Shown: one piece after another, positions 1-31,882 of the stretch
How the letters are laid out: each line of letters starts with the position of its first letter
How positions within the stretch are numbered: position 1 is the stretch's first letter
NCBI RefSeq assembly: GCF_003018235.1
Contig: NZ_CP027437.1
DNA: 64,000 nucleotides
Direction: 5' to 3' (one strand)
Origin: Escherichia coli
GTDB lineage: Bacteria > Pseudomonadota > Gammaproteobacteria > Enterobacterales > Enterobacteriaceae
Position numbers and translations under genes: made by a program
Notes under the pieces: model-generated
Told to the model about the DNA's origin: nothing
What the model saw: only the letters and a program-made list of their open reading frames with translations
Databases searched by the model: none

Positions 1-306
1 TTATCCATCGGTGAGCAAATCACCATGCTGTTGATCCTGATGTTGACCTCGAAAGGAATGGCTGGCGTACCACGCGCCTCAATGGTGGTTATCGCCGCCA
101 CGCTCAACCAGTTCAATATTCCGGAAGCGGGGCTGATCTTGCTGATGGGCGTTGATCCGTTCCTTGATATGGGGCGTTCCGCGACAAACGTCATGAGCAA
201 CGCAATGGGCGCTGCGATGGTGAGTCGGTGGGAAGGCGAACATTTCGGCGAGGGTTGTCGGGGTAAAGCATTAAAACCCAATGAATCGAACGTTGCTCTG
301 CCCTGA
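1..306 (+). CDS. DAACS-family (DctA/GltP-like) dicarboxylate/amino-acid:cation symporter, C-terminal fragment; 5' end lies outside the window
   Basis: Frame 1 is open from position 1 to a stop at 304-306. The C-terminal sequence (…GVPRASMVVIAATLNQFNIPEAGLILLMGVDPFLDMGRSATNVMSNAMGAAMVSRWE) resembles the conserved C-terminal region of GltP/DctA-type symporters as I recall them. Confidence 0.6.
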   Translation, partial: LSIGEQITMLLILMLTSKGMAGVPRASMVVIAATLNQFNIPEAGLILLMGVDPFLDMGRSATNVMSNAMGAAMVSRWEGEHFGEGCRGKALKPNESNVALP

Positions 307-413
307 GGGGGATCTTAAGCAATCAGAAGCCAATGACTACGCATTTTTATAAGCCGGATCATGAAGTTAGACGGCAATTAAGTAACACTAACGTTTAAGG
401 TGAAAAGTGAAAT

Positions 414-1610
414 ATGTCCAAACCATTTATCTGGCAAGAACCGTTTCTACAAAATAAAGACGGTACAGAATATACATTAATTAGCGATCAACATATTACA
501 GTAACGGAATTAGACGGCGAAGAAGTGATAAAAATCGCTCCTGAAGCATTAACGCTGCTTGCCCGGCAGGCATTTTATGAAGCCTCTTTTTTCTTACGTT
601 CCGCTCATTTGCAACAGGTCGCCAGCATTCTTAACGATCCGCAGGCCAGTAGTAATGATAAATACGTTGCGTTGCAGTTATTACGTAATGCTGAAGTCTC
701 AGCAAAAGGGGTATTACCCAACTGTCAGGATACCGGCACCGCAACTATTGTTGCCAGTAAAGGGCAACAGATATGGACGGGAGGTAACGACGCTGAAGCC
801 TTAAGCAAAGGCATTTACAGTACTTTCCAGGAAAATAATCTGCGCTTTTCACAAAATGCGCCGCTGGATATGTATACCGAAGTCAATACGCAAACCAATC
901 TCCCGGCGCAGATTGATATCAGCGCTGTCGCTGGTAATGAGTACCATTTTCTCTGTGTTAATAAAGGGGGCGGCTCCGCCAATAAAGCCGCACTTTATCA
1001 GGAAACCAAATCCTTATTGCAACCAGAAAAACTGACCGCATTTTTAATCGAAAAAATGAAATCGCTGGGCACCGCTGCCTGCCCGCCTTACCACATCGCC
1101 TTTGTCGTCGGAGGGCTTTCAGCCGATCAAACCTTAAAAGTTGCCAAGCTGGCCTCTACGAAATATTACGACAATTTGCCCACCAGCGGAAACGAGCAGG
1201 GACAAGCATTCCGTGATATTGAGCTGGAAAAAGTGTTGCTCGAGGTCAGTCAGCAATTTGGTATTGGTGCGCAATTTGGGGGTAAATATTTCGCTCATGA
1301 TATTCGCGTCATTCGTCTGCCGCGTCACGGTGGCTCTTGCCCGATAGCTATGGCGCTCTCCTGTTCTGCCGATCGCAATATCAAAGCAAAAATTAACAAG
1401 CACGGTATCTGGCTGGAAAAACTCGAACACAATCCGGGGCAATATATTCCAGCCTCACTGCGGGAAGAAAATCACGCGCAACATGTACAACTGGATCTAA
1501 ACCGTCCGTTGCGTGACGTGATGCAGGATCTCGCCAGATTACCGGTAGGCACCCGCGTGTCGTTAAGTGGTCCCATCGTAGTGGCACGCGATATCGCCAC
1601 GCCAAAATAA
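414..1610 (+). CDS. Class I (Fe-S) fumarate hydratase / L(+)-tartrate dehydratase family protein, N-terminal 398 aa; reading frame interrupted relative to full-length FumA-type enzymes
   Basis: 398-aa ORF whose sequence aligns, from memory, with FumA/TtdA. The C-terminal domain continues in the -1 frame (next feature). Confidence 0.75.
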
Positions 1611-1636
1611 AAGCGCGGCTGGATAACGCCGAACCG

Positions 1637-2065
1637 ATGCCGGATTACCTGAAGCATCATATTGTCTATTACGCTGGCTCGGCGAAAACACCGGAGAACA
1701 TGGCCTGCGGTTCACTGGGTCCAACCACGGGCGGTCGAATGGACGGTTATGTCGATACCTTCCAGGCGGCTGGCGGCAGTCTGGTGATGTTATCGAAAGG
1801 TAACCGCAGCCAGCAGGTCACCGATGCCTGTCACAAACATGGTGGCTTCAATCTGGGTAGTATTGGCGGTGCAGCTGCGTTACTGGCGCAAGAATATGTC
1901 AAAAGTCTGCGTTGCCTGGAATACCCGGAGCTGGGTATGGAAGCGGTGTGGATGATGGAAGTGGAAAATCTGCCCGCATTCATCCTGGTAGATGATAAAG
2001 GCAATAATTTCTTTAGTCAGTTTGAGCAGCAACACCGCTGCGCCAGTTGCCCTGCGGGACATTAA
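1637..2065 (+). CDS. Class I fumarate hydratase family, C-terminal (beta-type) domain fragment; probable continuation of the 414-1610 ORF after a frameshift
   Basis: 142-aa ORF ([12 protein letters not shown]…[12 protein letters not shown]…[12 protein letters not shown]) matching my recollection of the FumA C-terminal domain. The same frame read upstream (…[21 protein letters not shown]) matches the FumA linker. Confidence 0.7.
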
Positions 2066-2074
2066 GGAAAATGA

Positions 2075-2677
2075 ATGGAAGCGCGAATTTCAACTGAACG
2101 GCATGTGCAGCGCCAGCAGAAATTGAAGGAACAGGTCGATACGCGCATCGCGGCGGCGATAGAGAAAAAAGGGATTTTGATTGTTTTCACCGGCAATGGC
2201 AAAGGGAAATCCACTGCCGCGTTTGGTACTGTGACGCGCGCGGTGGGTCATGGCAAAACGGTGGGGGTTGCGCAGTACATCAAGGGGCAATGGGACAACG
2301 GCGAATACAACCTTCTCCAGCCGCTGGGGGTTGAGTTTCATATTATGGGAACCGGTTTTACCTGGGAGACACAGAACCGGCAAGCGGATATCGACGCGGC
2401 GAAAGAGGTCTGGTCGGAAAGCAAACGGATGCTGGCTGACAAGCGTTACGACTTAGTGGTGCTTGATGAGCTGACCTATATGCTGGCTTACCATTATCTG
2501 GATACCGAAGAAGTGATCGCTTCTCTGCAAAACCGCCCGGCACAACAAAGTGTCATTGTCACCGGACGCGGTTGCCACAGTCAGATATTAAAAATGGCGG
2601 ATACGGTCAGCGAAATCCGCCCCGTCAAACATGCTTTTGATAACGGCATTCAGGCCCAGCCGGGTATCGACTGGTAA
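2075..2677 (+). CDS. Cob(I)yrinic acid a,c-diamide / cob(I)alamin adenosyltransferase family protein (CobA/CobO/BtuR-like P-loop ATPase), a paralog rather than btuR itself
   Basis: 200-aa ORF with a P-loop (IVFTGNGKGKSTAAFG) and overall similarity to BtuR as recalled (…VLDELTYM…VIVTGRG…VSEIRPVKHAF). RBS AAGGA lies 6 nt upstream and the start is 10 nt past the fumarase stop, so the genes look co-transcribed. Confidence 0.75.
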   Translation: MEARISTERHVQRQQKLKEQVDTRIAAAIEKKGILIVFTGNGKGKSTAAFGTVTRAVGHGKTVGVAQYIKGQWDNGEYNLLQPLGVEFHIMGTGFTWETQNRQADIDAAKEVWSESKRMLADKRYDLVVLDELTYMLAYHYLDTEEVIASLQNRPAQQSVIVTGRGCHSQILKMADTVSEIRPVKHAFDNGIQAQPGIDW

Positions 2678-2680
2678 TAA

Positions 2681-2713
2681 CTGCGCCTGGCATCCCGCCA
2701 GGCGCAGGTTTTA
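2681..2713. terminator. Probable bidirectional intrinsic terminator between the convergent CobA-like and LysR genes
   Basis: Perfect 11-bp inverted repeat ctgcgcctggc / gccaggcgcag with a 5-nt loop (2681-2707), followed by gtttta. Confidence 0.5.
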
Positions 2714-3616
2714 CATCTCCTGCGGTACAACCGATTTCGCCAGCAACCATTCACGAAATTGCTGCAAGTGCGGTGAGTCAGACTTCTCTTCCTGCCACGT
2801 CATAATAAAACGATTACCGGTACGAATAGGCACATCACAGGGGATCACCATATCGCCACTATCCAAATCATGTTGAATAGCGAAACGTGGTAACAGCGCC
2901 ACGCCGAGATTAGAGCGCACGGCGGCAATCAGCATTGAAAGCAAATCGAAACGTGGTCCGTTGTTGACCAGCGGACTGCTAACGCCAGATAAGGCAAACC
3001 ACTCTTCCCAGCCAGTAATACGGGTACTTTGATGCAGAAGTGGTAACTCTGTAAGCAGTTCTGCCACTGACAGTTTTTGATCGGACATTGCAAGCAAACT
3101 GCCGCTGCATACCGGCAAAATCTCCTCATCAAAGAGATATTCTACTTCCGCCCAGGGCGCGCAAAAATTTTCGCGCATAATGACAGCATCGTACTCCCGA
3201 TTAAGAAAATCGCCGTTATTAGCTAAAGAGTGAATATTAACAATAATATCGGGATGTAACTTTGTGAATTCATGTAAATTTGGGATTAACCAGTGGGTAC
3301 TAAACGTAGGATTCACGGCAAGTTCAATAACCTGAACCGTAGGCTGCCAGGTCATAATGGTATTGGTATCGCGTTCCAGCTTATTTAATGTTTCTTTTAC
3401 TATCCCCAGGTAATACTTCCCTGCATCATTAAGAAAAATACGTTTTTTAGAGTGTGAAAATAACGGAGTATGTAAAAATTCCTCCAGCGCACTCACTTGT
3501 CTGAATACTGCACTTTGGGTCAACGCTAACTCCTCTGCCGCTTTGGTATAACTTTCATGACGTGCGACGACCTCAAAAGTCACCAGCAGCTCCGTTTTAG
3601 GTATTTTTCCTCGCAT
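2711..3616 (-). CDS. LysR-family transcriptional regulator
   Basis: 301-aa ORF with an N-terminal HTH (…YTKAAEELALTQSAVFRQVSALEEFL…) and LysR-type substrate-binding domain architecture. AT-rich upstream region at 3617-3900. Confidence 0.8.
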   Translation of the reverse strand: MRGKIPKTELLVTFEVVARHESYTKAAEELALTQSAVFRQVSALEEFLHTPLFSHSKKRIFLNDAGKYYLGIVKETLNKLERDTNTIMTWQPTVQVIELAVNPTFSTHWLIPNLHEFTKLHPDIIVNIHSLANNGDFLNREYDAVIMRENFCAPWAEVEYLFDEEILPVCSGSLLAMSDQKLSVAELLTELPLLHQSTRITGWEEWFALSGVSSPLVNNGPRFDLLSMLIAAVRSNLGVALLPRFAIQHDLDSGDMVIPCDVPIRTGNRFIMTWQEEKSDSPHLQQFREWLLAKSVVPQEM

Positions 3617-4180
3617 AATGCCGTCCCTTAAAAATAGTTTAAACCATCAAAAATACATTACTTATTACGAAGTAATGGTAACCAAAGCAGCAATAAATAA
3701 TTTATAAGAATCATGATTGACATTTATAACCCAGTAAGCCTGGCGTGACAAATATCTTAATCAGATAATAATAATCCGAAAAGCACAGCGCCTTTCGAAT
3801 TATCCGGAATCACATTAAGTGAAAATTATTAAATTGATATCATTTATCATATCTGTGGATATTATGATAAACAATCAACAAAGATTTTATTTTTGATTTA
3901 TAGCATATCCCTCTAAGAATTTTTGCGATGCTGCAATATCCGGGGTAAAGACCCGATCCTGGCTGACAAATGGCACGACTTGACGATAAGCGGTGAACAT
4001 CGCTTTTGTTGATTTACTTAACGCTACGGTCAAACGCTGGGAAGCCAGTGCATCAGGTAACGATTCGAAATTCGCCGTCGTTCTTATTCGTGGCTTGCGG
4101 TCGGTTGCGGCAATCCACAGTGGCTGTGGTCATGCAGTCAAGCCAGCGGTCAGATTTCGACCGTGGTTAACATTTAAGGC

Positions 4181-4205
4181 ATAAAAAAGGCCATCATACG
4201 ATGGC
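4181..4205 (-). terminator. Rho-independent terminator of the suc operon (and 3' end of sdhX)
   Basis: On the minus strand: hairpin GGCCATCGTATGATGGCC followed by TTTTTT. Confidence 0.7.
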
Positions 4206-4281
4206 CAACCATGTCGAAACCGACAGCCCTTCGCCATTCCTGTAGAGGGAAGCGGCGAGGGCTATTTCTTATTACAGATAT
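4182..4281 (-). ncRNA. sdhX: SdhX (RybD) sRNA derived from the sucD 3' UTR
   Basis: A ~100-nt segment between the sucD stop and the intrinsic terminator, at the position where sdhX is described in E. coli K-12. Assigned by position and terminator only; I cannot verify the seed sequence from memory. Confidence 0.5.
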
Positions 4282-5151
4282 TTATTTCAGAACAGTTTTC
4301 AGTGCTTCACCGATATCCGCCAGGCTGCGAACGGTTTTCACGCCTGCGGCTTCCAGAGCAGCGAATTTCTCATCCGCAGTCCCTTTACCACCGGCAATGA
4401 TGGCACCCGCGTGGCCCATACGTTTGCCTTTCGGCGCAGTCACACCAGCGATGTAACCCACAACAGGCTTGGTAACGTGCTCTTTGATGTACGCAGCCGC
4501 TTCTTCTTCAGCGCTACCGCCGATCTCACCGATCATCACGATCGCTTCGGTCTGCGGATCTTTTTCGAACATTTCGAGGATGTCGATAAAGTTAGAGCCA
4601 GGGATCGGGTCGCCGCCGATACCGACACAGGTCGACTGACCGAAACCGTAATCCGTGGTCTGTTTAACCGCTTCATAGGTCAGTGTACCGGAACGGGAAA
4701 CGATACCCACTTTACCCGGTTTGTGAATGTGACCAGGCTGGATACCGATTTTGCATTCACCCGGAGTGATAACGCCTGGGCAGTTCGGGCCGATCATACG
4801 AACGCCAGCTTCGTCCAGTTTCACTTTCACAGTCAGCATATCCAGCGTCGGGATGCCTTCAGTGATGGTGATAATCAGTTTGATGCCTGCATCAATAGCT
4901 TCCAGAATGGAGTCTTTGCAGAACGGTGCTGGTACGTAGATAACAGAAGCGGTAGCGCCAGTAGCAGCAACAGCTTCACGCACGGTGTTGAACACCGGCA
5001 GGCCGAGGTGGGTGGTGCCGCCTTTACCTGGGGTTACGCCGCCAACCATTTTAGTGCCGTATGCAATGGCCTGTTCTGAGTGGAAAGTCCCCTGGCTACC
5101 GGTAAAGCCCTGGCAGATAACCTTGGTGTTTTTATCAATTAAAATGGACAT
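4282..5151 (-). CDS. sucD: Succinyl-CoA synthetase alpha subunit
   Basis: 289-aa ORF, recognised from memory as SucD ([24 protein letters not shown]…). Confidence 0.97.
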
Positions 5152-6317
5152 TATTTCCCCTCCACTGCGGCAACAACCTGCTGAGCTGCATCCGTCAGAC
5201 CTTTTGCTGCAATAATATTCAGGCCGCTGTCAGCCAGTTTCTTCGCGCCGAGTTCGGCGTTGTTACCTTCCAGACGTACCACGACCGGTACGTTAACACC
5301 CACTTCCGCTACCGCGCCGATGATACCGTCAGCGATCAGGTCGCAACGAACGATACCGCCGAAGATGTTAACCAGAACGGCTTTCACTTTGTCGTCAGAG
5401 AGGATGATTTTGAACGCTTCGGTTACACGTTCTTTGGTTGCGCCGCCGCCAACGTCAAGGAAGTTAGCTGGTTCGCCGCCGTGCAGTTTAACGATGTCCA
5501 TCGTACCCATCGCCAGACCTGCGCCGTTAACCATACAACCGATGTTACCGTCCAGCGCAACGTAGTTCAGTTCCCACTGTGCAGCCTGTGCTTCACGTGG
5601 ATCTTCCTGCGACTGGTCACGCATTTCGCGCAGATCAGGCTGGCGGAACAGTGCGTTGCCATCAGCGCCCAGTTTGCCGTCGAGGCAAATCAGATCGCCC
5701 TGTTTGGTGATGACCAGCGGGTTGATTTCGATCAGCGCCAGGTCGCGCTCCAGGAAAATGGTCGCCAGGCCCATGAAGATTTTGGTGAACTGCTGAACCA
5801 GTTTACCTTCCAGACCCAGTTTGAACGCCAGCTCGCGTCCCTGATACGGCATCGGGCCAGTCAGCGGATCAAGCGCAACTTTGTGGATCAGGTGCGGAGT
5901 TTCTTCCGCCACTTTTTCGATTTCCACGCCGCCTTCGGTGGAGGCCATAAAGACCACACGACGGGAACTACGGTCAACAACGGCACCGAGATACAGCTCT
6001 TTAGCGATATCGGTCGCTGCTTCAACCAGAATCTGGTTAACCGGTTGGCCATTGGCATCTGTTTGATACGTTACCAGACGCTTGCCCAGCCAGTTTTCTG
6101 CAAAAGCACGGATGTCTTCTTTGCTGTTTACAACTTTCACACCGCCCGCTTTACCGCGGCCACCAGCGTGAACCTGACATTTCACTACCCACGGACCGGC
6201 ACCGATTTTTGAAGCGGCTTCTTCTGCTTCGCGCGGAGTAGTACAGGCATAACCCACCGGTGCTGGTAAGCCATAGCGGGCAAAAAGTTGTTTTGCCTGA
6301 TATTCATGTAAGTTCAT
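5151..6317 (-). CDS. sucC: Succinyl-CoA synthetase beta subunit
   Basis: 388-aa ORF ([18 protein letters not shown]…); ATGA overlap with sucD. Confidence 0.97.
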
Positions 6318-6410
6318 GTGTTCTGTCCATCCTTCAGTAATCGTTATCTTTTAAACCGTAGACCGACACCCTATCCACGTCGGTCTACAGTGCAGGTGAA
6401 GCTTAAACTA

Positions 6411-7628
6411 CTACACGTCCAGCAGCAGACGCGTCGGATCTTCCAGCAACTCTTTGATCGTTACCAGGAAGCCCACGGATTCGCGACCATCGATCAGACG
6501 GTGATCGTAGGACAGCGCCAGGTACATCATCGGCAGGATCTCAACCTGACCATTCACCGCCATCGGACGATCTTTGATAGCGTGCATACCCAGAATTGCG
6601 CTCTGCGGCGGGTTGATGATCGGCGTAGACATCAGGGAACCGAACACACCACCGTTGGTGATGGTGAAGTTACCACCGGTCAGATCTTCAACCGTCAGCT
6701 TGCCGTCACGGCCTTTAACTGCCAGCTCTTTGATTTTCTTCTCGATGTCTGCCATGCCTAGGGTATCGACATCACGCAGTACCGGCGTCACCAGGCCGCG
6801 CGGCGTAGAAACCGCCATGCTGACGTCGAAATAGTTGTGGTAAACCACATCATCGCCGTCGATAGACGCGTTCACTTCCGGGTAACGTTTCAGGGCTTCA
6901 ACCACCGCTTTCACGTAGAAGGACATAAAGCCCAGACGAATACCGTGACGTTTTTCAAACGCTTCACCGTACTGCTTACGCAGATCCATAATCGGCTTCA
7001 TGTTGACTTCGTTGAACGTGGTCAGCATAGCGGTGGAGTTTTTCGCTTCCAGCAGACGCTCTGCCACACGCTTACGCAGGCGAGTCATCGGCACACGTTT
7101 TTCGCTACGTGCAGCCAGAGCCGGTTGCGCCGCCGGAGCAGCCGCTGCCGGAGCAGACTCTTTCGCCGGGGCTTTCGCCAGATGTTTTTCCACATCTTCA
7201 CGAGTCAGACGACCACCCACACCGGTGCCTTTAATGGCGCTGGCGTCGAGGTTGTGTTCAGCCAGCAGGCGACGGATCGCCGGGCTTAACGCATCGTTGT
7301 TTTGCTCTTCCAGAGACGCCTGCTGGCGTTGCGCCGGAGTGGACGCTTTCTCTTCAGATTTGGCGCTGGTTTCTTTACCGGCGCTGTTGCCTTCACGCAG
7401 GCGACCAAGGATCTGACGAGACGTTACCGTTGTACCTTCATCTTCCAGAACCGCATCCAGAATGCCGTCTGCTGATGCCGGTACTTCCAGTACCACTTTG
7501 TCAGTTTCGATTTCTACCAGCACTTCATCACGTACGACTGCGTCGCCGGGTTTTTTATGCCAGGTTGCGACGGTGGCATCGGCTACGGATTCAGGCAGGT
7601 CAGGGACCAGAATATCTACGCTACTCAT
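6411..7628 (-). CDS. sucB: 2-oxoglutarate dehydrogenase E2 (dihydrolipoyl succinyltransferase)
   Basis: 405-aa ORF with a lipoyl domain (…[12 protein letters not shown]…) and a catalytic domain ending …DPTRLLLDV. Confidence 0.97.
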
Positions 7629-7642
7629 TGTGTATCCTTTAT

Positions 7643-10444
7643 TTATTCGACGTTCAGCGCGTCATTAACCAGATCTTGTTGCTGTTTCTGGTGAACGGAC
7701 ATATACCCTACCGCCGGAGAGGCGGAGGCCGGGCGGCCTGCATAACGCAGAGAAGCCCCAAACGGAATCACTTCACGGAAATGATGCTGGCTGCAGTACC
7801 ATGCGCCCTGGTTGAGCGGCTCTTCCTGGCACCAGACAAAATCCTTGACGTGAGCAAACTGCTGCAACACTTCCTGCATCGCTTTATGCGGGAACGGGTA
7901 GAGTTGCTCGATACGCACAATGGCGACATCGTGTTGATTGTTCTTACGACGCTGTTCCAGCAGGTCGTAATAAACCTTACCAGAACACATCACTACACGC
8001 TTAACGCCCTTCGGATCAAGCTCGTCGATTTCACCGATGGCTGGCAGGAAGGTGCCGTTCGCCAGTTCTTCGAGGCTGGAAACCGCCAGCGGATGACGCA
8101 GCAGGGATTTCGGCGACATCACGACCAGCGGACGACGCATCCCGCGCAGCGCCTGACGACGCAGCATGTGGTAAACCTGTGCCGGGGTAGAAGGTACGCA
8201 AACCTGCATGTTTTGCTCAGCACAAAGTTGCAGATAACGTTCCAGACGCGCGGAGGAGTGCTCCGGCCCCTGCCCTTCGTAACCGTGCGGCAGCAACATC
8301 ACCAGACCACACATCCGGCCCCATTTCTGTTCGCCAGAGGAGATGAACTGGTCGATAACCACCTGAGCACCGTTAGCGAAGTCACCGAACTGCGCTTCCC
8401 AGATAGTCAGAGTGCGTGGTTCTGCGGTGGCATAACCATATTCAAACGCCAGCACTGCTTCTTCAGACAGTACGGAGTCCCAGACACGGAACGCGCCCTG
8501 GCCGTTATGGATGTGTTGCAGCGGCGTGTAAGTGGAACCGTTAGACTGGTTGTGGATCACCGCGTGGCGGTGGAAGAAGGTACCGCGACCGGAGTCTTCA
8601 CCCGACAGGCGAACCGGAATGCCTTCGTCAACCAGCGTGGCGTAAGCGAGGTTTTCCGCGCCGCCCCAGTCGAACAGTTTCTCACCAGCTGCCATCGCCT
8701 GGCGATCGCCATAAATCTTGGCAACGCGAGACTGCATTTCAACTGCTTCCGGCACCGTGCTGATGCGTTTAGCCAGTTCCTGCAGGCGCTTCATCTCAAC
8801 TTTGTTCGGGTACTCTTCGTCCCATTCGTGGTTGAGGTACGGCGACCAGGTGAAAGAGTGCATGTTCATCGGACGCCACTCTGCTACCACGCAATCGCCA
8901 GCATCCAGCGCATCGCGGTACAGGTTAACCATCTCGGTGGCATCTTCCAGCGTCGCGACTTTTTCCTGCTCCAGCTTGTCAGCGTAGATTTTGCGCGGCG
9001 TCGGATGTTTTTTGATTTTCTGATACATCAGCGGCTGGGTTGCGCTCGGCTCGTCGGCTTCGTTGTGGCCGTGACGGCGGTAGCATACCAGGTCGATAAA
9101 GACATCACGTTTAAAGGTGTTACGGAAATCGAGCGCCAGACGGGTCACAAAGGCAACGGCTTCCGGATCGTCCGCGTTAACGTGGAAAATCGGGGCCTGA
9201 ACCATCTTACCGATATCAGTACAGTACGGTGTAGAACGAGCATCCAGCGGATTAGAGGTGGTGAAGCCAACCTGGTTGTTGATAACGATACGTACCGTAC
9301 CGCCAACTTCATAACCACGCGCTTTCGACATGTTCAGGGTTTCCTGAACCACGCCCTGCCCGGTCACTGCGGCGTCACCGTGGATGGTAATTGGCAGCAC
9401 TTTGTTGCTGCTCGGCTCATCAAGTCTGTCCAGACGGGCACGAACAGAACCGATAACTACCGGGCTGACAATCTCAAGGTGAGACGGGTTAAACGCCAGC
9501 GCCAGGTGCACCAGGCCGCCATCGGTCTGGAAGTCAGACGAGAAGCCCATGTGGTATTTCACGTCGCCTGTGCCAAGGTGTTCTTTATGTTTACCGGCGA
9601 ACTCGTCGAACAAGTCTTGCGGTTTTTTACCCAGCACGTTCACCAACACGTTCAGACGACCACGGTGCGCCATTCCGAGAACCACTTCGCGGGTGCCGCT
9701 GTTGCCAGCGTGGCGGATCATCTCTTTAAGCATCGGGATTAACGCGTCACCGCCTTCCAGCGAGAAGCGTTTTGCGCCAGGGAATTTTGCGCCGAGGTAA
9801 CGTTCAAGGCCTTCAGCGGCGGTCAGTTCGCTTAAGAAGCGTTTTTTCTCTTCGCTATTGAAAGTCGCGCGACCAGACTCGATACGCTGTTGGATCCAGC
9901 GTTTTTCTTCAGTGCTGGTAATGTGCATATACTCGGCACCAATCGGGCCGCAGTAGGTTTGCTTGAGGGCTTCCAGCAGCTCGCCGAGTTTCATGGTTTC
10001 TTTGCCGCTGGCAAATGAACCGACGTTGAAGGTCTCCTGGAAGTCTGCTTCGGTCAGATCGTGGAAAGACGGATCCAGATCGGCCACTTTATCTTGCTGC
10101 CACAGTCCCAGCGGATCGAGATTCGCATGCTGGTGACCACGGAAGCGGTATGCGTTAATGAGCTGCAGGACTTTAACCTGCTTCACATTGGTGTCAGGGT
10201 CGGAGATCGTTGAAGAGTAACGTGAAGCGTCTTTCGCCAGGCGGCGGAAATATTCACGCGTTTGAGAGTGGAATTGATCCGGTTTGACTCCCGTACCAGG
10301 TAACTGCTGGAACGTCGAACGCCAGTTAGCGTCAACCGAGTCAGGATCGGTTAAGAAGTCTTCATAGAGCTGTTCTATCCAGCTCTGGTTTGCGCCAGAG
10401 AGGTAAGAAGAGTCCAACCAGGCTTTCAAAGCGCTGTTCTGCAT
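7643..10444 (-). CDS. sucA: 2-oxoglutarate dehydrogenase E1 component
   Basis: 933-aa ORF ([30 protein letters not shown]…). Confidence 0.97.
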
Positions 10445-10644
10445 CGTGATCCCTTAAGCATCTTTTTTATGCTTACTTCGCCGTGGATACTACCACGCAC
10501 AGTGATGTGCGTGCCGGGGTTCACTTGCGAGCTCTTGTCTACGTAGTGGCTCGCGAAGGAACCTTTAAAAACTGTCTTAGTGTCAGGGGCAGTTTTTAAA
10601 GATTTCCTGAATAGCCGGGGGATTTCCCCGGCATCAACATTTAA

Positions 10645-11361
10645 TTACGCATTACGTTGCAACAACATCGACTTGATATGGCCGATGGCGCGCGTCGGGT
10701 TCAGTCCCTTCGGACATACACTGACGCAGTTCATGATGCTGTGACAGCGGAATACGCTGAATGCATCGCTCAAACCGTCGAGGCGGCTGTCAGTCTCGGT
10801 ATCACGGCTATCGATCAGGAAACGATATGCCGCTAACAAGCCTGCCGGGCCGATAAACTTATCGGGATTCCACCAGAAAGACGGACAAGAGGTTGAACAA
10901 CATGCGCAGAGAATACATTCATACAGCCCGTCGAGTTTTTCGCGCTGCTCTGGCATCTGTAAATGCTCGCGAGCTGGCGGATTTTGTCCATTATTCAACA
11001 GGTAAGGCTTAATTTTCTCATATTGCGCATAGAATTGTCCCATGTCTACCACCAAATCGCGGATCACCGGTAAACCTGGCAGCGGGCGAATCACAATCTT
11101 CTTGCCCGGCTGGTTGAGTGCCGAAATCGGGGTAATACAGGCCAGACCATTCTTGCCGTTCATGTTCAGACCGTCGGAACCGCACACACCTTCACGGCAG
11201 GAGCGACGGAACGACAGGCTGGGATCTTTCTCTTTCAGCTGGATAAGCGCATCCAGCAGCATCATGTCACGACCTTCTTCCGCTTCCAGGGTGTAATCCT
11301 GCATACGCGGAGCATCATCAACATCCGGGTTATAGCGATAAATTGAAAACTCGAGTCTCAT
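10645..11361 (-). CDS. sdhB: Succinate dehydrogenase iron-sulfur subunit
   Basis: 238-aa ORF with Cys clusters typical of SdhB. Confidence 0.97.
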   Translation of the reverse strand: MRLEFSIYRYNPDVDDAPRMQDYTLEAEEGRDMMLLDALIQLKEKDPSLSFRRSCREGVCGSDGLNMNGKNGLACITPISALNQPGKKIVIRPLPGLPVIRDLVVDMGQFYAQYEKIKPYLLNNGQNPPAREHLQMPEQREKLDGLYECILCACCSTSCPSFWWNPDKFIGPAGLLAAYRFLIDSRDTETDSRLDGLSDAFSVFRCHSIMNCVSVCPKGLNPTRAIGHIKSMLLQRNA

Positions 11362-11376
11362 TTTCCTGTCTCCGCA

Positions 11377-23891: not shown

Positions 23892-24813
23892 TGTGCAGCC
23901 GCCACGCTAATTGTTCGAAATAACGTTGTTGATCTTGCCGCGCTTTCAGTGCCTCTTCCAGTGAACACTGGACAAAATGAATCGGCTGACCGAGCGGAAT
24001 TTGCGCCAGATGGTACATATCAGCCTCAATGATACAGGCAATACGCGGATAACCACCGGTGGTCTGTGCGTCGTTCATCAATACAATCGGCTGGCCGTTA
24101 TGCGGCACTTGCACCACACCCGGCAACAAACCGTGAGATAACAGTTCGCGATCGGTGGTGCGTTTTAAAATTTGCCCCTGTAAGCGATAGCCCATTCGGT
24201 TACTTTGCGAGCTAAGCTGCCAGGGCGAACGCCAGAATGCATCCTGCGAGGCGCGATCGAACTCATGATATTCCGGCCCCGGCAAGGCGCGAATGCGGTT
24301 GCCCCACAGCAGCTGTTTAACGCCCTGCGCTTCCATAAAATCACGCTTCGCTTTGCCAATCGGGAGTCGGTCACCATCCTTCAGTAAACGGCCTTCCAGC
24401 CCGCCAATCCCCACTTTGAGATCGGTGCTGCATGACCCCATTACCGGCGGAACATCAATACCACCCGCGACCGCCAGATAACTGCGCATCCCGTGCTGCG
24501 GGCGTTTAAGCGTTAAACGCTGGCCTGCTTTCATCGGCAATCGCCAGCCAGTCCAGACGGCGTTATCATCCAGCCGCGCTTCGCAACCGGCCCCCGTCAG
24601 AGCAAACCACCCATCAGTTTCGAACTCAACCGTTAACTGGCCGAGCGTGATCTCCAGCGCGGGGGCATTGGCGTCATTACCCACCAGTAGGTTAGCAATG
24701 CGTAACGCGGGCATATCCAGTGCGCCGCAGTGGCTGATACCCGACTGGCGAAAACCGTGACGACCGCCATCCTGCACAGTGGTATACATGCCCGCACGAA
24801 TAATCTTCAGCAT
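23881..24813 (-). CDS. pxpC: 5-oxoprolinase subunit C (allophanate hydrolase subunit 2-like)
   Basis: 310-aa ORF recognised as YbgK. Confidence 0.9.
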
Positions 24814-25463
24814 ACTCCCTCCTTCTGCGGTACAAAGCGCACGCTGTCTCCCGGTCGTAATAAGATGGGTTCGTCACGCGCCGGATCAAACAGGCTGAGT
24901 GAGGTATGACCAATCAACTGCCAGCCACCCGGCGTTGCCAGCGGATAAATACCAGTCTGCGGCCCGCCGATCCCGACAGAACCTGCCGGAACGAGCAAGC
25001 GCGGTTCAGCGCGCCGTGGCGTGTGTAGTTGTTCCGGCAAACTCCCGAGATACGGGAAGCCCGGTTGAAAACCTAAAAACCAGACCACGTATTCCACGGA
25101 GGAGTGCAATTCAACAACCTGTTTTTCGCTCAACCCACAATGCGCCGCGACCACCGCCAAATCCGGTCCGCCTGCGCCACCGTAAACCACCGGAATTTCA
25201 ATAAAACGAGACTCCGGCTCCAGCGCCTCACTCTCCTCCCACCAGCGTTGCAAACGCTCTATGGCATCCAGCGCCAGCGACTCAGGATTACGTAAAATCA
25301 CCGTGATATTGTTCATGCCGGGAATGGCTTCAACCACATTCGGCATATCCACCAGACGCTGCGCCAGTCGCCAGATCCGTTTCTGGCTAGCCAGCGTCAC
25401 CGGCGGTTCCAGCTCCAGCACTACCGCCGTTTCACCTATCAGATAACAACGCGCTCGTTGCAC
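24807..25463 (-). CDS. pxpB: 5-oxoprolinase subunit B (allophanate hydrolase subunit 1-like)
   Basis: 218-aa ORF recognised as YbgJ. Confidence 0.9.
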
Positions 25464-25485
25464 TTTCGATCCCTCTGATTATTCG

Positions 25486-26229
25486 TTATGCAGGATTAGG
25501 AATATCAATAAAGGTCACATCAAGATCGGTATTTTCATTCAGCCACTCGCTCAACGCGCGAATACCACCGCGTTCAGTGGCATGGTGACCCGCAGCATAA
25601 AAATGCAATCCCTGCTCGCGGGCTGAATGAATGGTCTGTTCAGAAACTTCGCCAGTAATAAAAGCATCCACGCCAAAACGCGCGGCGCTATCGATAAAAC
25701 TTTGCCCGCCCCCCGTGCACCAGGCGACGCGCTGGACCACCTCAGGTCCGGTATCGCCACACCATAACGGCTTACGTCCCAGACGCGCTTCAATCCAGGA
25801 AGCCAGCTCCAGTCCCGGCACAGGCATGGTCAGTTCGCCCCACGGCACCAACGGCTCAATTTCGCCCATGACCGTGATCCCCAGTAACGCCGCCAGCTGT
25901 GCGTTATTGCCCAGCTCAGGATGTGCGTCAAGCGGCAAATGCCAGCCATACAGGTTGATATCATTCGCCAGCAACGTTTTTAAACGGTTACGCTTCATGC
26001 CGCGAATGACCGGAGATTCGCCTTTCCAGAAGTAGCCATGATGCACAATGACCGCATCCGCGCCCAGACGCACTGCCTCATCGAGCAAAGCCTGGCTGGC
26101 AGTGACACCGGTAACAATTTTTTGCACCGTCTCTTTGCCTTCCACCTGCAAACCATTCGGCGCGTAATCACTAATCGCCGCGCTGTTCAGTTTTTCGTTA
26201 ATCAGTTGTTCCAGTTCGGTGTTTTTCAT
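25486..26229 (-). CDS. ybgI: GTP cyclohydrolase 1 type 2 / NIF3-family metal-binding protein
   Basis: 247-aa ORF recognised as YbgI. Confidence 0.93.
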   Translation of the reverse strand: MKNTELEQLINEKLNSAAISDYAPNGLQVEGKETVQKIVTGVTASQALLDEAVRLGADAVIVHHGYFWKGESPVIRGMKRNRLKTLLANDINLYGWHLPLDAHPELGNNAQLAALLGITVMGEIEPLVPWGELTMPVPGLELASWIEARLGRKPLWCGDTGPEVVQRVAWCTGGGQSFIDSAARFGVDAFITGEVSEQTIHSAREQGLHFYAAGHHATERGGIRALSEWLNENTDLDVTFIDIPNPA

Positions 26230-26316
26230 CTTCGCGCCTTCCGTATTCTGATAGCTACACCGTTAACATAGCGTTACCTCGCCTGTTCGTCGATAGCCAA
26301 TCTTTTGACATATTAA

Positions 26317-27981
<1,665 letters not shown>

Positions 27982-28022
27982 CAGGCCAGCACCATGCCTG
28001 ATAAAACGCTCGCTGCGTTTTA

Positions 28023-29441
28023 TCAGGCTCCTTTCCTCGCTTCTTCGTACGCTGCCAGCGTTCGCAGCCTTGCCTCTTTGTGATCAACTATCGGTTGCGG
28101 ATAATCCAGCGTCACACCTGCTTTCTGCGCCCACTTCCACGGCTCATGCACCACTTTCCCTGGCACATCGCGCAGTTCCGGTAGCCACTGGCGGATAAAC
28201 TCGCCTTCGCGGTCAAATTTCTCGCCCTGGGTTGTCGGGTTAAAAATACGAAAATACGGCGCTGCATCGGTTCCGGTTGAAGCGGCCCACTGCCAGCCAC
28301 CGTTATTAGCTGCCAAATCACCATCAATCAGCTGCGACATGAAATATCGCTCACCTTCGCGCCAGTCGATCAATAAATCTTTCACCAAAAAACTGGCTGT
28401 AATCATCCGTAGCCGGTTATGCATCCAGCCAGTGGTGTTAAGCTGACGCATGGCAGCATCAACAATCGGGTATCCCGTTTTGCCTTCCTGCCAGGCCTTT
28501 AAATGCGCGGAATTGCTCTGCCACTGCACGCGGTCGGTCCAGACAATAAACGGACGATGTTTACACAGCGAGGGGTAATACGTTATCAGATGACGGTAAA
28601 ACTCGCGCCAGATCAGCTCATTAAGCCAGATACTACCGGCCCCACCGTCCAGCGCCTGCGGCTGTTCCGCCAACAAGCGATGCAGACACTGGCGAGGCGA
28701 TAACCCGCCCGTTGCCAGGCTGGCGGACAAACGACTGGTGCCTTCCACTGCCGGAAAATCTCGTTGTTGCTCATATTCTCCGGCACCGTTCTGGCAAAAC
28801 TGGCGTAATTGCGCAATCGCAGCTTTTTCTTCCACCGGGAAATGCGCAGTATCGAAAGGCTGACGAGGATAATTCAGCGTAATGGATGGCGCGGGATCTA
28901 TCGATCCACTACTACGTACTTTTGGCGCAGCGACGCACTCCGGCATCCCTTCCCGCAGCCGTTTCAGCCAGGCGTTTTTAAATGGCGTAAAGACTTTGTA
29001 CATCTCATGATTGCCAGTCATCACCGCCCCCGGCGGCAGGATCACGCTGTCGTCAAATCCTTCACACACCACGTTACGCAGCGTTCTCTCAACCTGCGCA
29101 TCCCGCGCCCGCTCATTCACCTCATACTGATAGTTATAAAACAGATGGGTAACACGATTTTCCGCGCACACCTGTTTAACTATTTCGACGCTGGCAGCAA
29201 AGTCATCCACTTCATGAAACAGCAAAGGAATGCCTTTTTCCGCCAGCGCGATTTGTAGCCCATTCAGTTGAGCATTGATAAGTTCAGCCTGACGCGGCGA
29301 CACATTATGCGCCGCCCACTGGCGTGGTGTAGCGATATACAACGCCAGCACGCGTGCAGACGAATAGCGGCAAGCGGCAGCCAGCGCGAGATTATCGTGC
29401 TGACGTAAATCCTGGCGAAACCAGACCAGATGGGTAGTCAT
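28023..29441 (-). CDS. phr: Deoxyribodipyrimidine photolyase
   Basis: 472-aa ORF (MTTHLVWFRQDLRQHDNLALAAA…). Confidence 0.95.
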   Translation of the reverse strand: MTTHLVWFRQDLRQHDNLALAAACRYSSARVLALYIATPRQWAAHNVSPRQAELINAQLNGLQIALAEKGIPLLFHEVDDFAASVEIVKQVCAENRVTHLFYNYQYEVNERARDAQVERTLRNVVCEGFDDSVILPPGAVMTGNHEMYKVFTPFKNAWLKRLREGMPECVAAPKVRSSGSIDPAPSITLNYPRQPFDTAHFPVEEKAAIAQLRQFCQNGAGEYEQQRDFPAVEGTSRLSASLATGGLSPRQCLHRLLAEQPQALDGGAGSIWLNELIWREFYRHLITYYPSLCKHRPFIVWTDRVQWQSNSAHLKAWQEGKTGYPIVDAAMRQLNTTGWMHNRLRMITASFLVKDLLIDWREGERYFMSQLIDGDLAANNGGWQWAASTGTDAAPYFRIFNPTTQGEKFDREGEFIRQWLPELRDVPGKVVHEPWKWAQKAGVTLDYPQPIVDHKEARLRTLAAYEEARKGA

Positions 29442-29947
29442 AAAACTCCTGAATGGCGCAAGTTAATCACATGCGGCCAAAGTTCGAAATAACGCTGCCC
29501 TGAAAGCCAGGCGTTAGGATAAAGCGCCATATAGTGTTTGATACGCATCAGCGGCGCAAGAAGCGGTTGCTCGCCACGGCGATAACTGTCGATAAGCGCC
29601 GCCAGCTGCTGGCGTTCTGTGGAATAAATATGCGGGCGAAAATACCCCTGAACGTGCATCAAAACGTTGGTGTGATCGCGCGGGTTGGCGGGATGAGAAA
29701 GCAAAACAATTACGCGTTGACGGTACTGGCTGTAAAAATCATCCAGATTTTGCCACTGATGAATATCAGCCACAAACGGGCCAAGTTTGCGGTATTCCGG
29801 CTGAGAATGAGCCAGAAAGACGAGTTTATAGCGGCTGTGATAATCGAGAAGCGCCCCGCGCGTTAAGCCATGTTCTTTCAGTCGATATAGCTCATAAATC
29901 GCGAAGATGCGGATTAGGGTGCTTTCATCAAATCGTTGCTGATTCAT
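29438..29947 (-). CDS. ybgA: DUF1722-family protein
   Basis: 169-aa ORF; 4-nt overlap with the phr start. Confidence 0.9.
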   Translation of the reverse strand: MNQQRFDESTLIRIFAIYELYRLKEHGLTRGALLDYHSRYKLVFLAHSQPEYRKLGPFVADIHQWQNLDDFYSQYRQRVIVLLSHPANPRDHTNVLMHVQGYFRPHIYSTERQQLAALIDSYRRGEQPLLAPLMRIKHYMALYPNAWLSGQRYFELWPHVINLRHSGVL

Positions 29948-30856
29948 TACTGCTCCTGAGATATTAACAGGAGTAAGTGTAGACGTTGGGAAATGATGTT
30001 TGTGAAGTTAATCCTGTTGTAGCAGGGCAAAATTACGAAAGCACGCTCCCCGCAAGGACTGACGCCAGATAGTTTCTGTCCATGGCTGCCCTTTCCATTC
30101 AAACGTGAAATCAATAAGTTCATCAGGGACATCGCAAACAATATGAAGTCAGATTTCTTCTCTGCCGTGACTCTTTTCACTCATTGCGTAACTGTCATGC
30201 TCTGGATTATTTAATTCTTTCAGTGGAATTTTTTCCTCAAAGGCTTTATTTAGCCGCCCCTGATTTCCTTTTACAGCGAATAAATAATCACCTCCCTGTT
30301 TTTGTATCTTCTCTGCAATATCTTTCTGGCAACCCATCGCATCAGTTGTGATAATTTTTCCTTTAATATCCAACATGTTAAGAAGTTCAGGGGTAACTCT
30401 AATCTCATTGGATTTCTCATCCGTCTTGATCTGTCCGATGACCAGACTGTGCATTGTTCAGAACGCACTAATGACATGAATCGCTCCCCTGCGGCGACTC
30501 TTGTCATAAGAGTGCCGGAGCGTTTTTCCATCAATTGCAATGACGCCTTTATCATCTGAAGAATGGCAGTCACGCATCCAGTTAATAAAGCACTCGTGAA
30601 ATTTTGCAGGACTGATACAGGATACAACTCTGGCAATGGTATCGTGAACAGGAATACCATTTTCAAAATCACCATATTGTTTTAAAAAATCGAGATGTGT
30701 TTCCCCAAAATCCTCTATATCTTCCCAGCCTTCTGCACCAGAAATAACGGCACAAATAGTCAACAGTAGAATATCCGACAATTTATGTTCCACTTTCCAG
30801 GCTTGTCTGTAATCGGGAATAATAGAAATATGTTCCATCAGTTTTTTAAGTTCCAT
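29947..30856 (-). mobile_element. ISAs1-family (H-repeat-associated) transposase gene, disrupted (in-frame TGA at 30458-30460 and a downstream frameshift)
   Basis: Three consecutive minus-strand ORFs (30458-30856, 30149-30454, 29947-30180) which I recognise as pieces of an H-rpt/ISAs1-type transposase ([32 protein letters not shown]… / …[28 protein letters not shown]…). Confidence 0.75.
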
Positions 30857-31020
30857 TTTGTGCTCCTTAATTATGTAAGGAGTATTTGATCATGTATAAG
30901 CAATAAAAAACAGCTTCAGGTAATGAGGAATATCTCAATTTTTAAACATAAAATGCGAATTATTTAGCACAAAAAAGCAGCGTTACGTGATCTTTCCCTG
31001 GTGATAAACGAGAAATAAAT

Positions 31021-31053
31021 AAAAGGGGCGAGGCTGATTTCGCCCCCTTTTAT
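31021..31053. terminator. Probable intrinsic terminator downstream of the orphan immunity gene
   Basis: Hairpin aggggcga…tcgcccc flanked by A/T runs on both strands. Confidence 0.5.
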
Positions 31054-31056
31054 TAT

Positions 31057-31422
31057 TTAACAATATTTAACTTCATATTTCCCTATAATATCGAACACAT
31101 GGTCATAAGTACTGATAATTATGTGCTGAACTCCATCTCTTTGGATATCCTCTACTAAATCGAAACTTGATTTAGTATATTGTTCAAAAGGATAATCATC
31201 AACTTTGTATATAGATAACTTTTCAATTTTGCTAATAAAAAACTCGAGACTAATATCATAAGCATCTTTAATAGCAGGTTTGCAGGCAGACAACGATAAG
31301 GAAGCTTTGATGGTAAAGTTAAATGGATACAGATTTAACTCTGTCCCAGTTAAAATCAACGCATCTCGACCATATATTTGACCATATTTTGTTTCTAGTG
31401 CTTTTACAATCATATTAGCCAC
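31057..31422 (-). CDS. Putative immunity protein paired with the orphan Rhs C-terminal toxin
   Basis: 121-aa AT-rich ORF whose start (GTG 31422 or ATG 31413) abuts or overlaps the stop of the upstream orphan toxin frame, the usual toxin/immunity arrangement. No recognisable family. Confidence 0.55.
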   Translation of the reverse strand: MANMIVKALETKYGQIYGRDALILTGTELNLYPFNFTIKASLSLSACKPAIKDAYDISLEFFISKIEKLSIYKVDDYPFEQYTKSSFDLVEDIQRDGVQHIIISTYDHVFDIIGKYEVKYC

Positions 31423-31882
31423 AACCTCTTGTCCTCACTGTTCTGCCGCCATTTTGAGTTGAAAATCTTCGATCTAAATTAATTTTTGACAATTCCTCTG
31501 GAGTAGCCCATCTCGAAGGAATCTTCGATACACCGGCTGCTTTGGCAGCATAAAGTCGTCTGTTATCTAAAGTAAAGACTGAATCTTTATGAGCACCTTG
31601 TGATAACAATCTCTCTTGAACATTTACAGGTAAATCCCGCATTCTAACTTTTCTAATAGGTTCAACGTGATTTATATATGACGGGTCATTTATAAGTCTG
31701 TGAATAAGTCCATTAACATTTCTTCCGTCTTCAAAAACACCATTCATACTATCTTGTGAGAATAGAATTGTTTTAGGACTTACTGGTGATAATCCAAGAG
31801 GATCTATCCATGATAACGGGTTTGGAACATAACTATAGAGGTTTAATCCCCCCTCCAGCCCTATCGGGTCAGGATGCGCAAT
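31415..31882 (-). pseudogene. Orphan Rhs C-terminal toxin module (start-less fragment retaining only the DPxGL end of the Rhs core)
   Basis: Minus-strand frame reads …DPIGLEGGLNLYSYVPNPLSWIDPLGL followed by a ~125-aa unique domain (…MNGVFEDGRNVNGLIHRLIND…TLDNRRLYAAKAAGVSKIP…). The frame opens after a stop at 31883-31885 with no in-frame start until M at 31747. Confidence 0.7.

What the first reader, a model, noticed from the sequence alone, without database searches (positions are those of the whole stretch)
4182..4281. Candidate SdhX sRNA in the sucD 3' UTR
A ~100-nt segment between the sucD stop and a strong intrinsic terminator occupies the position where the SdhX/RybD sRNA is described in E. 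coli. The assignment is by position and terminator only; I cannot confirm the seed sequence from memory.
Basis: partly seen in the sequence, partly recalled or inferred. Interest (0 to 1): 0.3.

Follow-up and report, generated by a model that had tools for sequence, protein, structure and literature searches.

The report
Known SdhX small RNA gene

Summary
Confirmed, and already known. The window is E. coli. sucD lies on the minus strand (4282..5151) as the last gene of sdhCDAB-sucABCD. The 101 nt after its stop codon (4281..4181, minus strand) match 100 of 101 positions of the annotated K-12 ncRNA sdhX (b4764). The one difference is position 100, after the U-run.

Every published functional element is present:
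- the seed UUCGACAUGGU (4218..4208);
- residues C34 and G62;
- the 7-bp GC-rich terminator hairpin (4206..4189) with its U6 tail (4188..4183);
- the Escherichia-specific 5' hairpin that carries the katG-pairing site.

The published pairings with ackA, fdoG and katG are reproduced. The 50-nt K-12 segments spanning these target sites match at 99% identity or more in almost all of 5,426 complete E. coli genomes.

In 86 distinct sucD 3' ends, almost all from named Enterobacteriaceae, the stretch between the stop codon and the seed varies in length and sequence. The flanks of the seed are near-invariant, and the inner terminator stem co-varies.

Expression, RNase E processing and Hfq binding in this strain are inferred from K-12 and Salmonella experiments and were not tested here. 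The only local peculiarity is that the DNA right after the terminator is a methylaspartate-pathway island rather than mngR.

The parts
4282..5151 (-). sucD (succinyl-CoA synthetase alpha subunit), the last CDS of the operon. Its stop codon is at 4284..4282.
   Evidence: 289-aa ORF. Pfam CoA_binding 3.5e-32 and Ligase_CoA 2.5e-27. Annotated sucD in matching E. coli genomes.
4181..4281 (-). sdhX gene: the full-length (~101 nt) SdhX/RybD sRNA, which is the sucD 3' UTR.
   Evidence: 100/101 identical to K-12 ncRNA sdhX b4764; the only mismatch is position 100, G->A. Fold -41.3 kcal/mol, z -4.67.
4225..4263 (-). 5' hairpin (RNA nt 19-57), the variable, Escherichia-type part of SdhX.
   Evidence: Folds alone at -22 kcal/mol, z -4.1. 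In the cross-species set this sequence occurs only in five loci. Four are labelled Escherichia or Citrobacter (E. albertii L013, E. coli L038, E. whittamii L076, and L066, a MAG labelled Citrobacter sp.). The record title of the fifth, L097, was not shown.
4240..4253 (-). katG-pairing site (RNA nt 29-42, GCUUCCCUCUACAG; includes C34).
   Evidence: 14-bp helix (13 Watson-Crick plus 1 G-U) with K-12 katG -20..-7, covering its Shine-Dalgarno. Equalled or beaten by 8 of 1000 shuffles. Restricted duplex -28.2 kcal/mol. [quoted passage not shown]
4208..4218 (-). Conserved seed UUCGACAUGGU (RNA nt 64-74); core CGACAU is at 4216..4211.
   Evidence: Exact match to the seed quoted in PMC6393394. Single-stranded in the 38-nt form. 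Pairs over 9 Watson-Crick bp (nt 65-73) with ackA -2..+7, which includes the AUG.
4211..4220 (-). fdoG-pairing site (RNA nt 62-71, GUUUCGACAU; includes G62).
   Evidence: 10-bp Watson-Crick helix with K-12 fdoG -22..-13, including G62:C-13. Equalled or beaten by 8 of 1000 shuffles. This is the pair validated by compensatory mutation in PMC6393394.
4183..4206 (-). Rho-independent terminator: stem-loop GGCCAUCGUAUGAUGGCC (4206..4189) plus U6 (4188..4183). It is also the presumed Hfq-binding 3' module.
   Evidence: Terminator scan and folds. In 86 distinct sucD 3' ends from the genome scan, stem pairs 1-4 are almost invariant. Pairs 5-7 change by compensatory substitutions: 83-85 of 86 canonical, against a maximum of 72-76 in 2000 partner shuffles.
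4183..4220 (-). Approximate extent of the short (~38 nt) processed form (SdhX2-like). The 5' end is inferred, not measured.
   Evidence: The review PMC9438474 gives ~101-nt and ~38-nt forms made by successive RNase E cleavages. The Salmonella processing site is at the UUU before the seed. The UU before UCGACAUGG is conserved in 71-84 of 86 sequences.
4282..13888 (-). Parental operon sdhCDAB-sucABCD: sdhC 13484..13888, sdhD 13143..13490, sdhA about 11377..13143, sdhB 10645..11361, sucA 7643..10444, sucB 6411..7628, sucC 5151..6317, sucD 4282..5151. gltA is divergent at 14582..15865 (+).
   Evidence: ORFs. Annotation of the closest genome, NZ_CP148331.1, 99.3% identical over 16 kb.

Best explanation
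Window 4281..4181 (minus strand) is the sdhX gene. The sequence doubles as the 3' UTR and terminator of the sdhCDAB-sucABCD operon.

Shown here, by sequence:
- It is identical to the K-12 sRNA over every functional nucleotide.
- It carries the conserved seed, the terminator with its U-tail, and the Escherichia-specific katG site.
- It is complementary to the translation-initiation regions of ackA, fdoG and katG, exactly as published.

Inferred from published K-12 and Salmonella experiments, not tested here:
- The ~10-kb operon transcript ends at this terminator.
- RNase E releases a ~101-nt RNA and then a ~38-nt RNA.
- Hfq binds the U-rich 3' end and internal uridines.
- The seed pairs across the ackA start codon and blocks translation, lowering acetate kinase but not Pta. 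High TCA-operon transcription is thereby coupled to reduced AckA synthesis and a shifted acetyl-phosphate balance.
- In E. coli, the same seed extended to G62 represses fdoG, and the upstream hairpin loop represses katG.
For: - Identity: K-12 annotates ncRNA sdhX at 765050-765150, directly after sucD. The window matches it at 100 of 101 positions; the only difference is nt 100, after the U-run.
- Functional residues: seed at nt 64-74, with C34 and G62 present (definitions from PMC6393394).
- Pairing: ackA 9 bp Watson-Crick over -2..+7. fdoG 10 bp including G62:C-13. katG 14 bp.
- Target conservation: the 50-nt K-12 segments spanning the pairing sites match at 99% identity or more in 5421, 5425 and 5406 complete E. 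coli genomes.
- Terminator and folds.
- Operon context.
- Distribution: the element is present in 5,424 of 5,426 E. coli genomes.
- Cross-species set of 86 distinct sucD 3' ends: variable 5' part of 35-65 nt, near-invariant UU-seed-UUGGCC, covarying terminator stem, and a run of at least 5 T, mostly 6 to 9.
- Natural E. coli variants (U36C, U46G, G83U) avoid the seed and the terminator stem.
- Literature for biogenesis and function: PMC6393394, PMC9438474, and Hfq-CLASH recovery of SdhX-ackA and SdhX-katG chimeras in E. coli, PMC7213987.
Against: - Nothing in the sequence argues against it.
- No expression, processing or Hfq data exist for this particular strain.
- The rest of the genome, including its own ackA, katG and fdoG, is not in the window.
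- The E. coli primary paper (De Mets et al. 2019) was not available to read. E. coli-specific 5' ends are therefore taken from a review and from the K-12 annotation.
- Rfam 15 gave no match at this locus, so there is no independent covariance-model hit.
- The cross-species set was retrieved with a pattern that required the 9-nt seed core. It cannot measure how often the seed is absent.
Confidence: 0.97

Rival explanations
1. It is only the operon's 3' UTR and intrinsic terminator. It ends transcription and stabilises sucD mRNA but has no trans-acting role in this strain.
For: The terminator is real. PMC6393394 reports that deleting the whole 3' UTR lowers SucD protein, so the region does have a cis role. 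No expression data exist for this strain.
Against: The sequence is identical to an RNA with experimentally validated trans targets. The seed is conserved well beyond what a terminator needs: UU-UCGACAUGG-UU next to a 5' part that varies in length and sequence. The target sites are conserved species-wide. The cis and trans roles are not mutually exclusive.
Confidence: 0.02
2. SdhX is made here from its own promoter inside sucD (MicL-like) rather than by RNase E processing of the operon mRNA.
For: One weak sigma-70-like match lies on the minus strand inside sucD (4727..4700, 9 of 12). PMC6393394 noted that SucD and SdhX accumulate incongruently.
Against: Promoter-like sites in the region are no more frequent than in shuffles (3 found, 2.4 expected). 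That site is about 420 nt upstream of the RNA. In Salmonella, both SdhX species drop in an rne-ts strain, and no TSS or conserved promoter precedes their 5' ends.
Confidence: 0.02
3. The segment encodes a small protein: the minus-strand 35-aa ORF 4237..4130, or the plus-strand ORFs 3993..4184 and 4211..4456.
For: These ORFs exist mechanically. AGGA lies directly before the AUG at nt 45.
Against: The 35-aa ORF runs through the terminator, so a terminated transcript would lack its stop codon. Its 3' half lies in DNA that differs completely from K-12. The AGGA-AUG spacing is zero. The 63-aa plus-strand ORF has no Pfam match and no similarity to MngR. The 81-aa ORF is antisense to conserved sucD codons.
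Confidence: 0.005

Closest known systems
SdhX (formerly RybD), E. coli K-12 b4764, NC_000913.3 765050-765150
   Same: Position directly after the sucD stop. 100/101 nt identity. Same seed, C34, G62, 5' hairpin, terminator and U6. Same predicted pairings with ackA, fdoG and katG.
   Different: Nucleotide 100 is A instead of G, after the U-run and probably at or beyond the RNA 3' end. The DNA after the terminator is unrelated. K-12 has the convergent mngR stop 2 nt downstream. The window has a ~565-nt spacer and then a co-directional LysR-type gene of a methylaspartate-pathway island.
Salmonella SdhX1 (87 nt) and SdhX2 (38 nt), PMC6393394
   Same: Same locus, same seed core, same arrangement of seed, UU, GC hairpin and U-tail. 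ackA is the shared target. Processed from the operon mRNA by RNase E.
   Different: The Salmonella 5' part is shorter and unrelated in sequence: 39 nt from the stop codon to the seed core in S. enterica arizonae (L051), against 64 nt here. It lacks the katG site and has U where E. coli has G62, so it targets fumB and yfbV instead of fdoG and katG.
Other RNase E-processed, Hfq-dependent 3' UTR sRNAs (CpxQ, SroC, NarS, MalH, GlnZ)
   Same: Same principle: the operon terminator serves as the Hfq module, a seed lies just upstream, and RNase E releases the RNA.
   Different: Different parental genes, seeds and targets. SdhX is unusual in how little is conserved outside the short seed and the terminator.

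Membership tests
SdhX/RybD sRNA | Encoded directly 3' of the sucD stop codon, at the end of sdhCDAB-sucABCD. | tested here: met
   The sucD stop is at 4284..4282 and the RNA starts at 4281. The full operon lies upstream on the same strand.
SdhX/RybD sRNA | Sequence homology to the type member (K-12 b4764). | tested here: met
   100/101 identical; the only mismatch is at nt 100.
SdhX/RybD sRNA | Conserved seed (UUCGACAUGGU, core CGACAU) immediately upstream of the terminator and accessible. | tested here: met
   Exact seed at nt 64-74. Fully unpaired in the 38-nt form. In the 101-nt form, CGAC is predicted to sit in a weak 4-bp hairpin.
SdhX/RybD sRNA | Rho-independent terminator with a 3' U-tract (the Hfq-binding module). 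| tested here: met
   7-bp stem, 4-nt loop, U6. The stem co-varies across 86 distinct sucD 3' ends.
SdhX/RybD sRNA | Seed complementarity to the ackA start-codon region. | tested here: met
   9 Watson-Crick bp, SdhX 65-73 with ackA -2..+7. The 50-nt K-12 segment spanning the ackA site matches at 99% identity or more in 5421 of 5424 genomes. This strain's own ackA is not available.
SdhX/RybD sRNA | Escherichia-specific pairings: fdoG via G62 and katG via the C34 region. | tested here: met
   10 bp including G62:C-13 for fdoG. 14 bp including C34 for katG. The 50-nt segments spanning both target sites match at 99% identity or more in almost all genomes.
SdhX/RybD sRNA | Generated by RNase E processing of the operon mRNA, with no promoter of its own. 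| not testable with these tools
   Indirect only. No above-chance promoter match, and UU is conserved at the published cleavage position. The experimental evidence is from Salmonella.
SdhX/RybD sRNA | Hfq-bound, stably accumulating RNA. | not testable with these tools
   Published for K-12 and Salmonella: Hfq co-IP, CLIP, RIL-seq and CLASH. No data for this strain.
Rfam-curated RNA family | A match to a covariance model at or above its gathering score. | tested here: not met
   No gathering-level hit anywhere in the 64-kb window. At E<=10 the only hit on the segment matches nothing but the terminator hairpin and U-tail (isrD, 17.3 bits against a gathering score of 37). A 7.2-bit tmRNA hit also overlaps the segment. 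No SdhX model matched, so this does not count against membership in SdhX.

The most novel reading that the evidence does not exclude
In the Escherichia-type long form, the 5' half of the seed (CGAC, nt 66-69) is predicted to pair with GUCG (nt 58-61); unpaired probability is below 0.1. In the ~38-nt form the seed is completely free. RNase E cleavage at the UU just before the seed could therefore be an activating step that unmasks the ackA/fdoG seed. The long form would then mainly present the katG site in its hairpin loop, so the two isoforms would have partly different target sets. A second, weaker idea concerns lineages in which the terminator is followed by a co-directional LysR gene instead of the convergent mngR. 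There, terminator read-through could link TCA-operon transcription to the methylaspartate island.
Probability: 0.1. Interest if true: 0.25.

Novelty: already known. Interest (0 to 1): 0.05.

Why it matters
It matters little as a discovery. SdhX has been known since 2003 as RybD. It was characterised in 2018-2019 and is annotated in the K-12 reference. The practical points are about annotation. The 20 E. coli RefSeq records whose annotation was inspected at this position, apart from K-12, all showed no feature there. Rfam 15 returned no SdhX match, so automated pipelines appear to miss it. The survey of 86 distinct sucD 3' ends supports the published picture of a minimal, evolvable 3' UTR sRNA: a fixed seed and terminator joined to a free-running 5' extension. 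It would be enough to seed a covariance model.

Tried and rejected
- Rfam. The gathering-threshold scan of the whole window gave 0 hits. The permissive scan of 3600-4700 gave only sub-threshold chance matches. The isrD hit covers just the terminator hairpin and U-tail. Rfam cannot confirm or refute the assignment.
- Whole-length RNAduplex of the 101-nt RNA against 90-nt target windows. It produced unrealistic end-to-end duplexes no better than shuffles (98, 27 and 75 of 300 shuffles as good). I replaced it with longest-helix and region-restricted tests.
- De Mets et al. 2019 (PNAS), tried by DOI and by PMC id. It is not held. E. coli-specific biogenesis is therefore cited second-hand.
- Whether the convergent plus-strand ORF 3993..4184 is an mngR remnant. 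There is no similarity (E = 4.1) and no Pfam domain, so I rejected this.
- Small-ORF readings of the segment. Rejected (see rival explanations).
- Count of terminator-like sites in the region. Not above shuffles, so the terminator was validated by cross-species covariation instead.
- The genome contigs pattern scan returned 100 stretches. Thirteen, 11 of them with listed titles from unrelated taxa such as Nocardioides and Clostridia, lacked a sucD-type C-terminus (stop 3-5 codons after ALK) and were discarded as chance hits.
- A protein-anchored, unbiased scan was not run, to save shared compute.

Full report
**Observation**

The window is Escherichia coli. An 801-nt query around the finding matches 5,425 of 5,426 complete genomes, some at 100%.

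sucD is the 289-aa minus-strand ORF 4282..5151. It carries the CoA_binding and Ligase_CoA domains and is annotated sucD in matching genomes. Its stop codon is at 4284..4282.

Read on the minus strand, 4281 to 4181 is AUAUCUGUAAUAAGAAAUAGCCCUCGCCGCUUCCCUCUACAGGAAUGGCGAAGGGCUGUCGGUUUCGACAUGGUUGGCCAUCGUAUGAUGGCCUUUUUUAU.

The count of terminator-like sites in the region is not above shuffles (2 found, 2.1 expected). The 101-nt RNA nevertheless folds at -41.3 kcal/mol, z = -4.67.

It needs three notes: the strand is minus, the terminator is part of the segment, and the annotated 3' end is 4181 rather than 4182.

**Identification**

The K-12 reference annotates 'ncRNA sdhX, b4764, small regulatory RNA SdhX' at 765050-765150, starting at the first base after the sucD stop. 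The window matches it at 100 of 101 positions. The single difference is position 100 (G in K-12, A here), which lies after the U-run.

Homology with K-12 stops abruptly right after that.

The 101-nt query is found in 5,424 of 5,426 complete E. coli genomes. It is normally single-copy, and 4,225 records match at 99% identity or more.

**Defining features from the literature**

Miyakoshi et al. (PMC6393394) define several features:
- the seed, UUCGACAUGGU, with core CGACAU, directly before the terminator;
- G62, needed for fdoG repression and restored by fdoG C-13G;
- C34, in the katG-pairing region, which is specific to Escherichia and Shigella.

In the window the seed is at RNA nt 64-74 (4218..4208). 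Position 34 is C and position 62 is G.

I recomputed the pairings against the K-12 target 5' regions.

| Target | SdhX nt | Target positions | Helix | Shuffles as good |
|---|---|---|---|---|
| ackA | 65-73 | -2..+7, includes the AUG | 9 Watson-Crick bp | 21 of 1000 |
| fdoG | 62-71 | -22..-13, includes G62:C-13 | 10 Watson-Crick bp | 8 of 1000 |
| katG | 29-42 | -20..-7, covers the Shine-Dalgarno | 14 bp with one G-U, -28.2 kcal/mol | 8 of 1000 |

The strain's own targets are outside the window. As a substitute I searched 50-nt K-12 segments spanning each site against all complete E. coli genomes. They match at 99% identity or more in 5421 of 5424 (ackA), 5425 of 5425 (katG) and 5406 of 5414 (fdoG) matching records.

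**Context**

The complete sdhCDAB-sucABCD operon lies upstream on the same strand, from sdhC at 13888 down to sucD at 4282. gltA is divergent.

No promoter-like site above chance precedes the RNA.

**Evidence from other species**

I ran one plain DNA-pattern scan of the 100,044-species genome collection. The pattern was anchored on the codons for the SucD C-terminal motif IG[E/D]ALK plus the 9-nt seed core 50-80 nt downstream. It returned 100 stretches.

Of these, 87 have a sucD-type C-terminus, giving 86 distinct sequences. Almost all of the listed titles are Enterobacteriaceae. The genera include Escherichia, Salmonella, Citrobacter, Klebsiella, Raoultella, Enterobacter, Kosakonia, Kluyvera, Cedecea, Buttiauxella and Mangrovibacter. 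The other 13 were chance hits, 11 of them with listed titles from unrelated taxa, and I discarded them.

The pattern required the seed core, so this set cannot measure how often the seed is lost. It does show what else is constrained:
- The stretch from the stop codon to the seed core varies from 35 to 65 nt and is unrelated between genera.
- The two bases before the seed core are U (71 and 84 of 86).
- The six bases after it are UUGGCC (83-86 of 86).
- A hairpin and a run of at least 5 T (mostly 6 to 9) always follow.
- Stem pairs 1-4 are nearly invariant.
- Stem pairs 5-7 switch among A-U, G-C, G-U and C-G while staying canonical in 85, 85 and 83 of 86 sequences. In 2000 shuffles of the partners the means were 65-70 and the maxima 72-76.

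The E. coli-type 5' hairpin with the katG site occurs only in five loci: E. albertii (L013), E. coli (L038), E. whittamii (L076), L066 (a MAG labelled Citrobacter sp.) and L097, whose title was not listed. This agrees with the published statement that the katG duplex is confined to the Escherichia/Shigella clade.

Within E. coli, the variant allele seen in strains Rb-23 and 884 has three changes. U36C is in the centre of the katG duplex, U46G is in the 5' hairpin, and G83U is in the terminator loop. None touches the seed or the terminator stem.

**Mechanism**

Shown here is that every sequence determinant of the characterised RNA is intact.

The following steps are inferred from published work:
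- The operon transcript terminates at 4183-4181.
- RNase E releases a ~101-nt and then a ~38-nt species.
- Hfq binds the 3' U-tail and internal uridines.
- The seed pairs over the ackA start codon and represses AckA but not Pta. TCA-operon expression is thereby linked to acetate and acetyl-phosphate metabolism.
- In E. coli, fdoG and katG are additional targets. SdhX-ackA and SdhX-katG chimeras were recovered by Hfq-CLASH.

One structural detail emerged from my folds. In the long form, CGAC of the seed is predicted to pair with GUCG at nt 58-61, with unpaired probability below 0.1. In the 38-nt form the seed is entirely single-stranded. Processing could therefore unmask the seed.

This is speculative. 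In Salmonella, a cleavage-site mutant still regulated its target when overexpressed.

**Rivals**

- *Terminator only, no trans function.* This does not explain the seed conservation or the validated targets.
- *An internal promoter inside sucD.* The scan gives it no support, and Salmonella rne-ts data argue against it.
- *Small ORFs in the segment.* They run through the terminator or lack any homology.

**Novelty and verdict**

This is already known. It is the sdhX gene, essentially identical to the reference allele. Interest is low.

The only local peculiarity is what follows the terminator: a methylaspartate-pathway island instead of mngR-mngAB. About 15-20% of complete E. coli genomes share this arrangement.

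Noticed in passing
window 1..4180 (continues beyond the window start): Right after the sdhX terminator the window departs from K-12. mngR and mngA are absent. Instead there is a ~565-nt AT-rich spacer, then a LysR-type regulator (3616..2711, minus), cobO (2075..2677, plus), a class I fumarate-hydratase-like gene (414..2066, plus) and the end of a dicarboxylate symporter. In the closest genome, NZ_CP148331.1, this continues into methylaspartate mutase (glmS, glmL, E subunit) and methylaspartate ammonia-lyase, up to cydAB. Between 835 and 1,119 of 5,426 complete E. coli genomes carry parts of it. Nearly the same post-terminator flank (one C-to-T difference) appears in E. whittamii (L076), L066 and L097.
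   Followed up: partly
window 1596-1597 (gene 414..2066, + strand): A 1-bp deletion (CCC to CC) relative to NZ_CP148331.1 frameshifts the class I fumarate-hydratase-like gene into two ORFs, 414..1610 and 1637..2065. None of the 1,119 complete genomes that carry the gene has this allele; the best match is 98.8%, which is the gap itself. It is either a strain-specific pseudogene or a sequencing error in a short homopolymer.
   Followed up: partly
L006 (E. coli FDAARGOS_944, NZ_CP065613.1), locus ~2573-3330: An IS1 element is inserted inside sdhX after nt 73, between the seed and the terminator. This should separate the seed from its Hfq/terminator module, making the strain a natural sdhX disruption.
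   Followed up: partly
L007 and L008 (E. coli Rb-23 and 884), sdhX nt 36, 46, 83: This natural sdhX allele carries U36C, which puts a C:A mismatch in the centre of the 14-bp katG duplex, together with U46G and G83U in the terminator loop. The seed and the terminator stem are untouched. It may weaken katG control specifically.
   Followed up: no
window 4181..4281 and the same position in other E. coli records: K-12 annotates sdhX. The 20 other RefSeq E. coli records whose annotation was inspected at this position show no feature there. Rfam 15 returned no SdhX match at any threshold tried. Standard pipelines therefore appear to miss this sRNA.
   Followed up: yes
L002 (E. coli Ch1, NZ_CP127316.1), locus 4869-5327; corresponds to window ~2677-2711: Strain Ch1 has an IS200/IS605 tnpA between the LysR gene and cobO. 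The window has only a 33-nt gap there.
   Followed up: no
window 3887..4141 (- strand): Some RefSeq genomes (for example 118UI) annotate an 85-aa hypothetical protein in the spacer between the sdhX terminator and the LysR gene. In the window the matching frame is open for only 48 aa (3887..4033). No function is evident.
   Followed up: no
window 1..64000: There are no tRNA or tmRNA genes and no Rfam gathering-level RNA family anywhere in the 64-kb window.
   Followed up: yes
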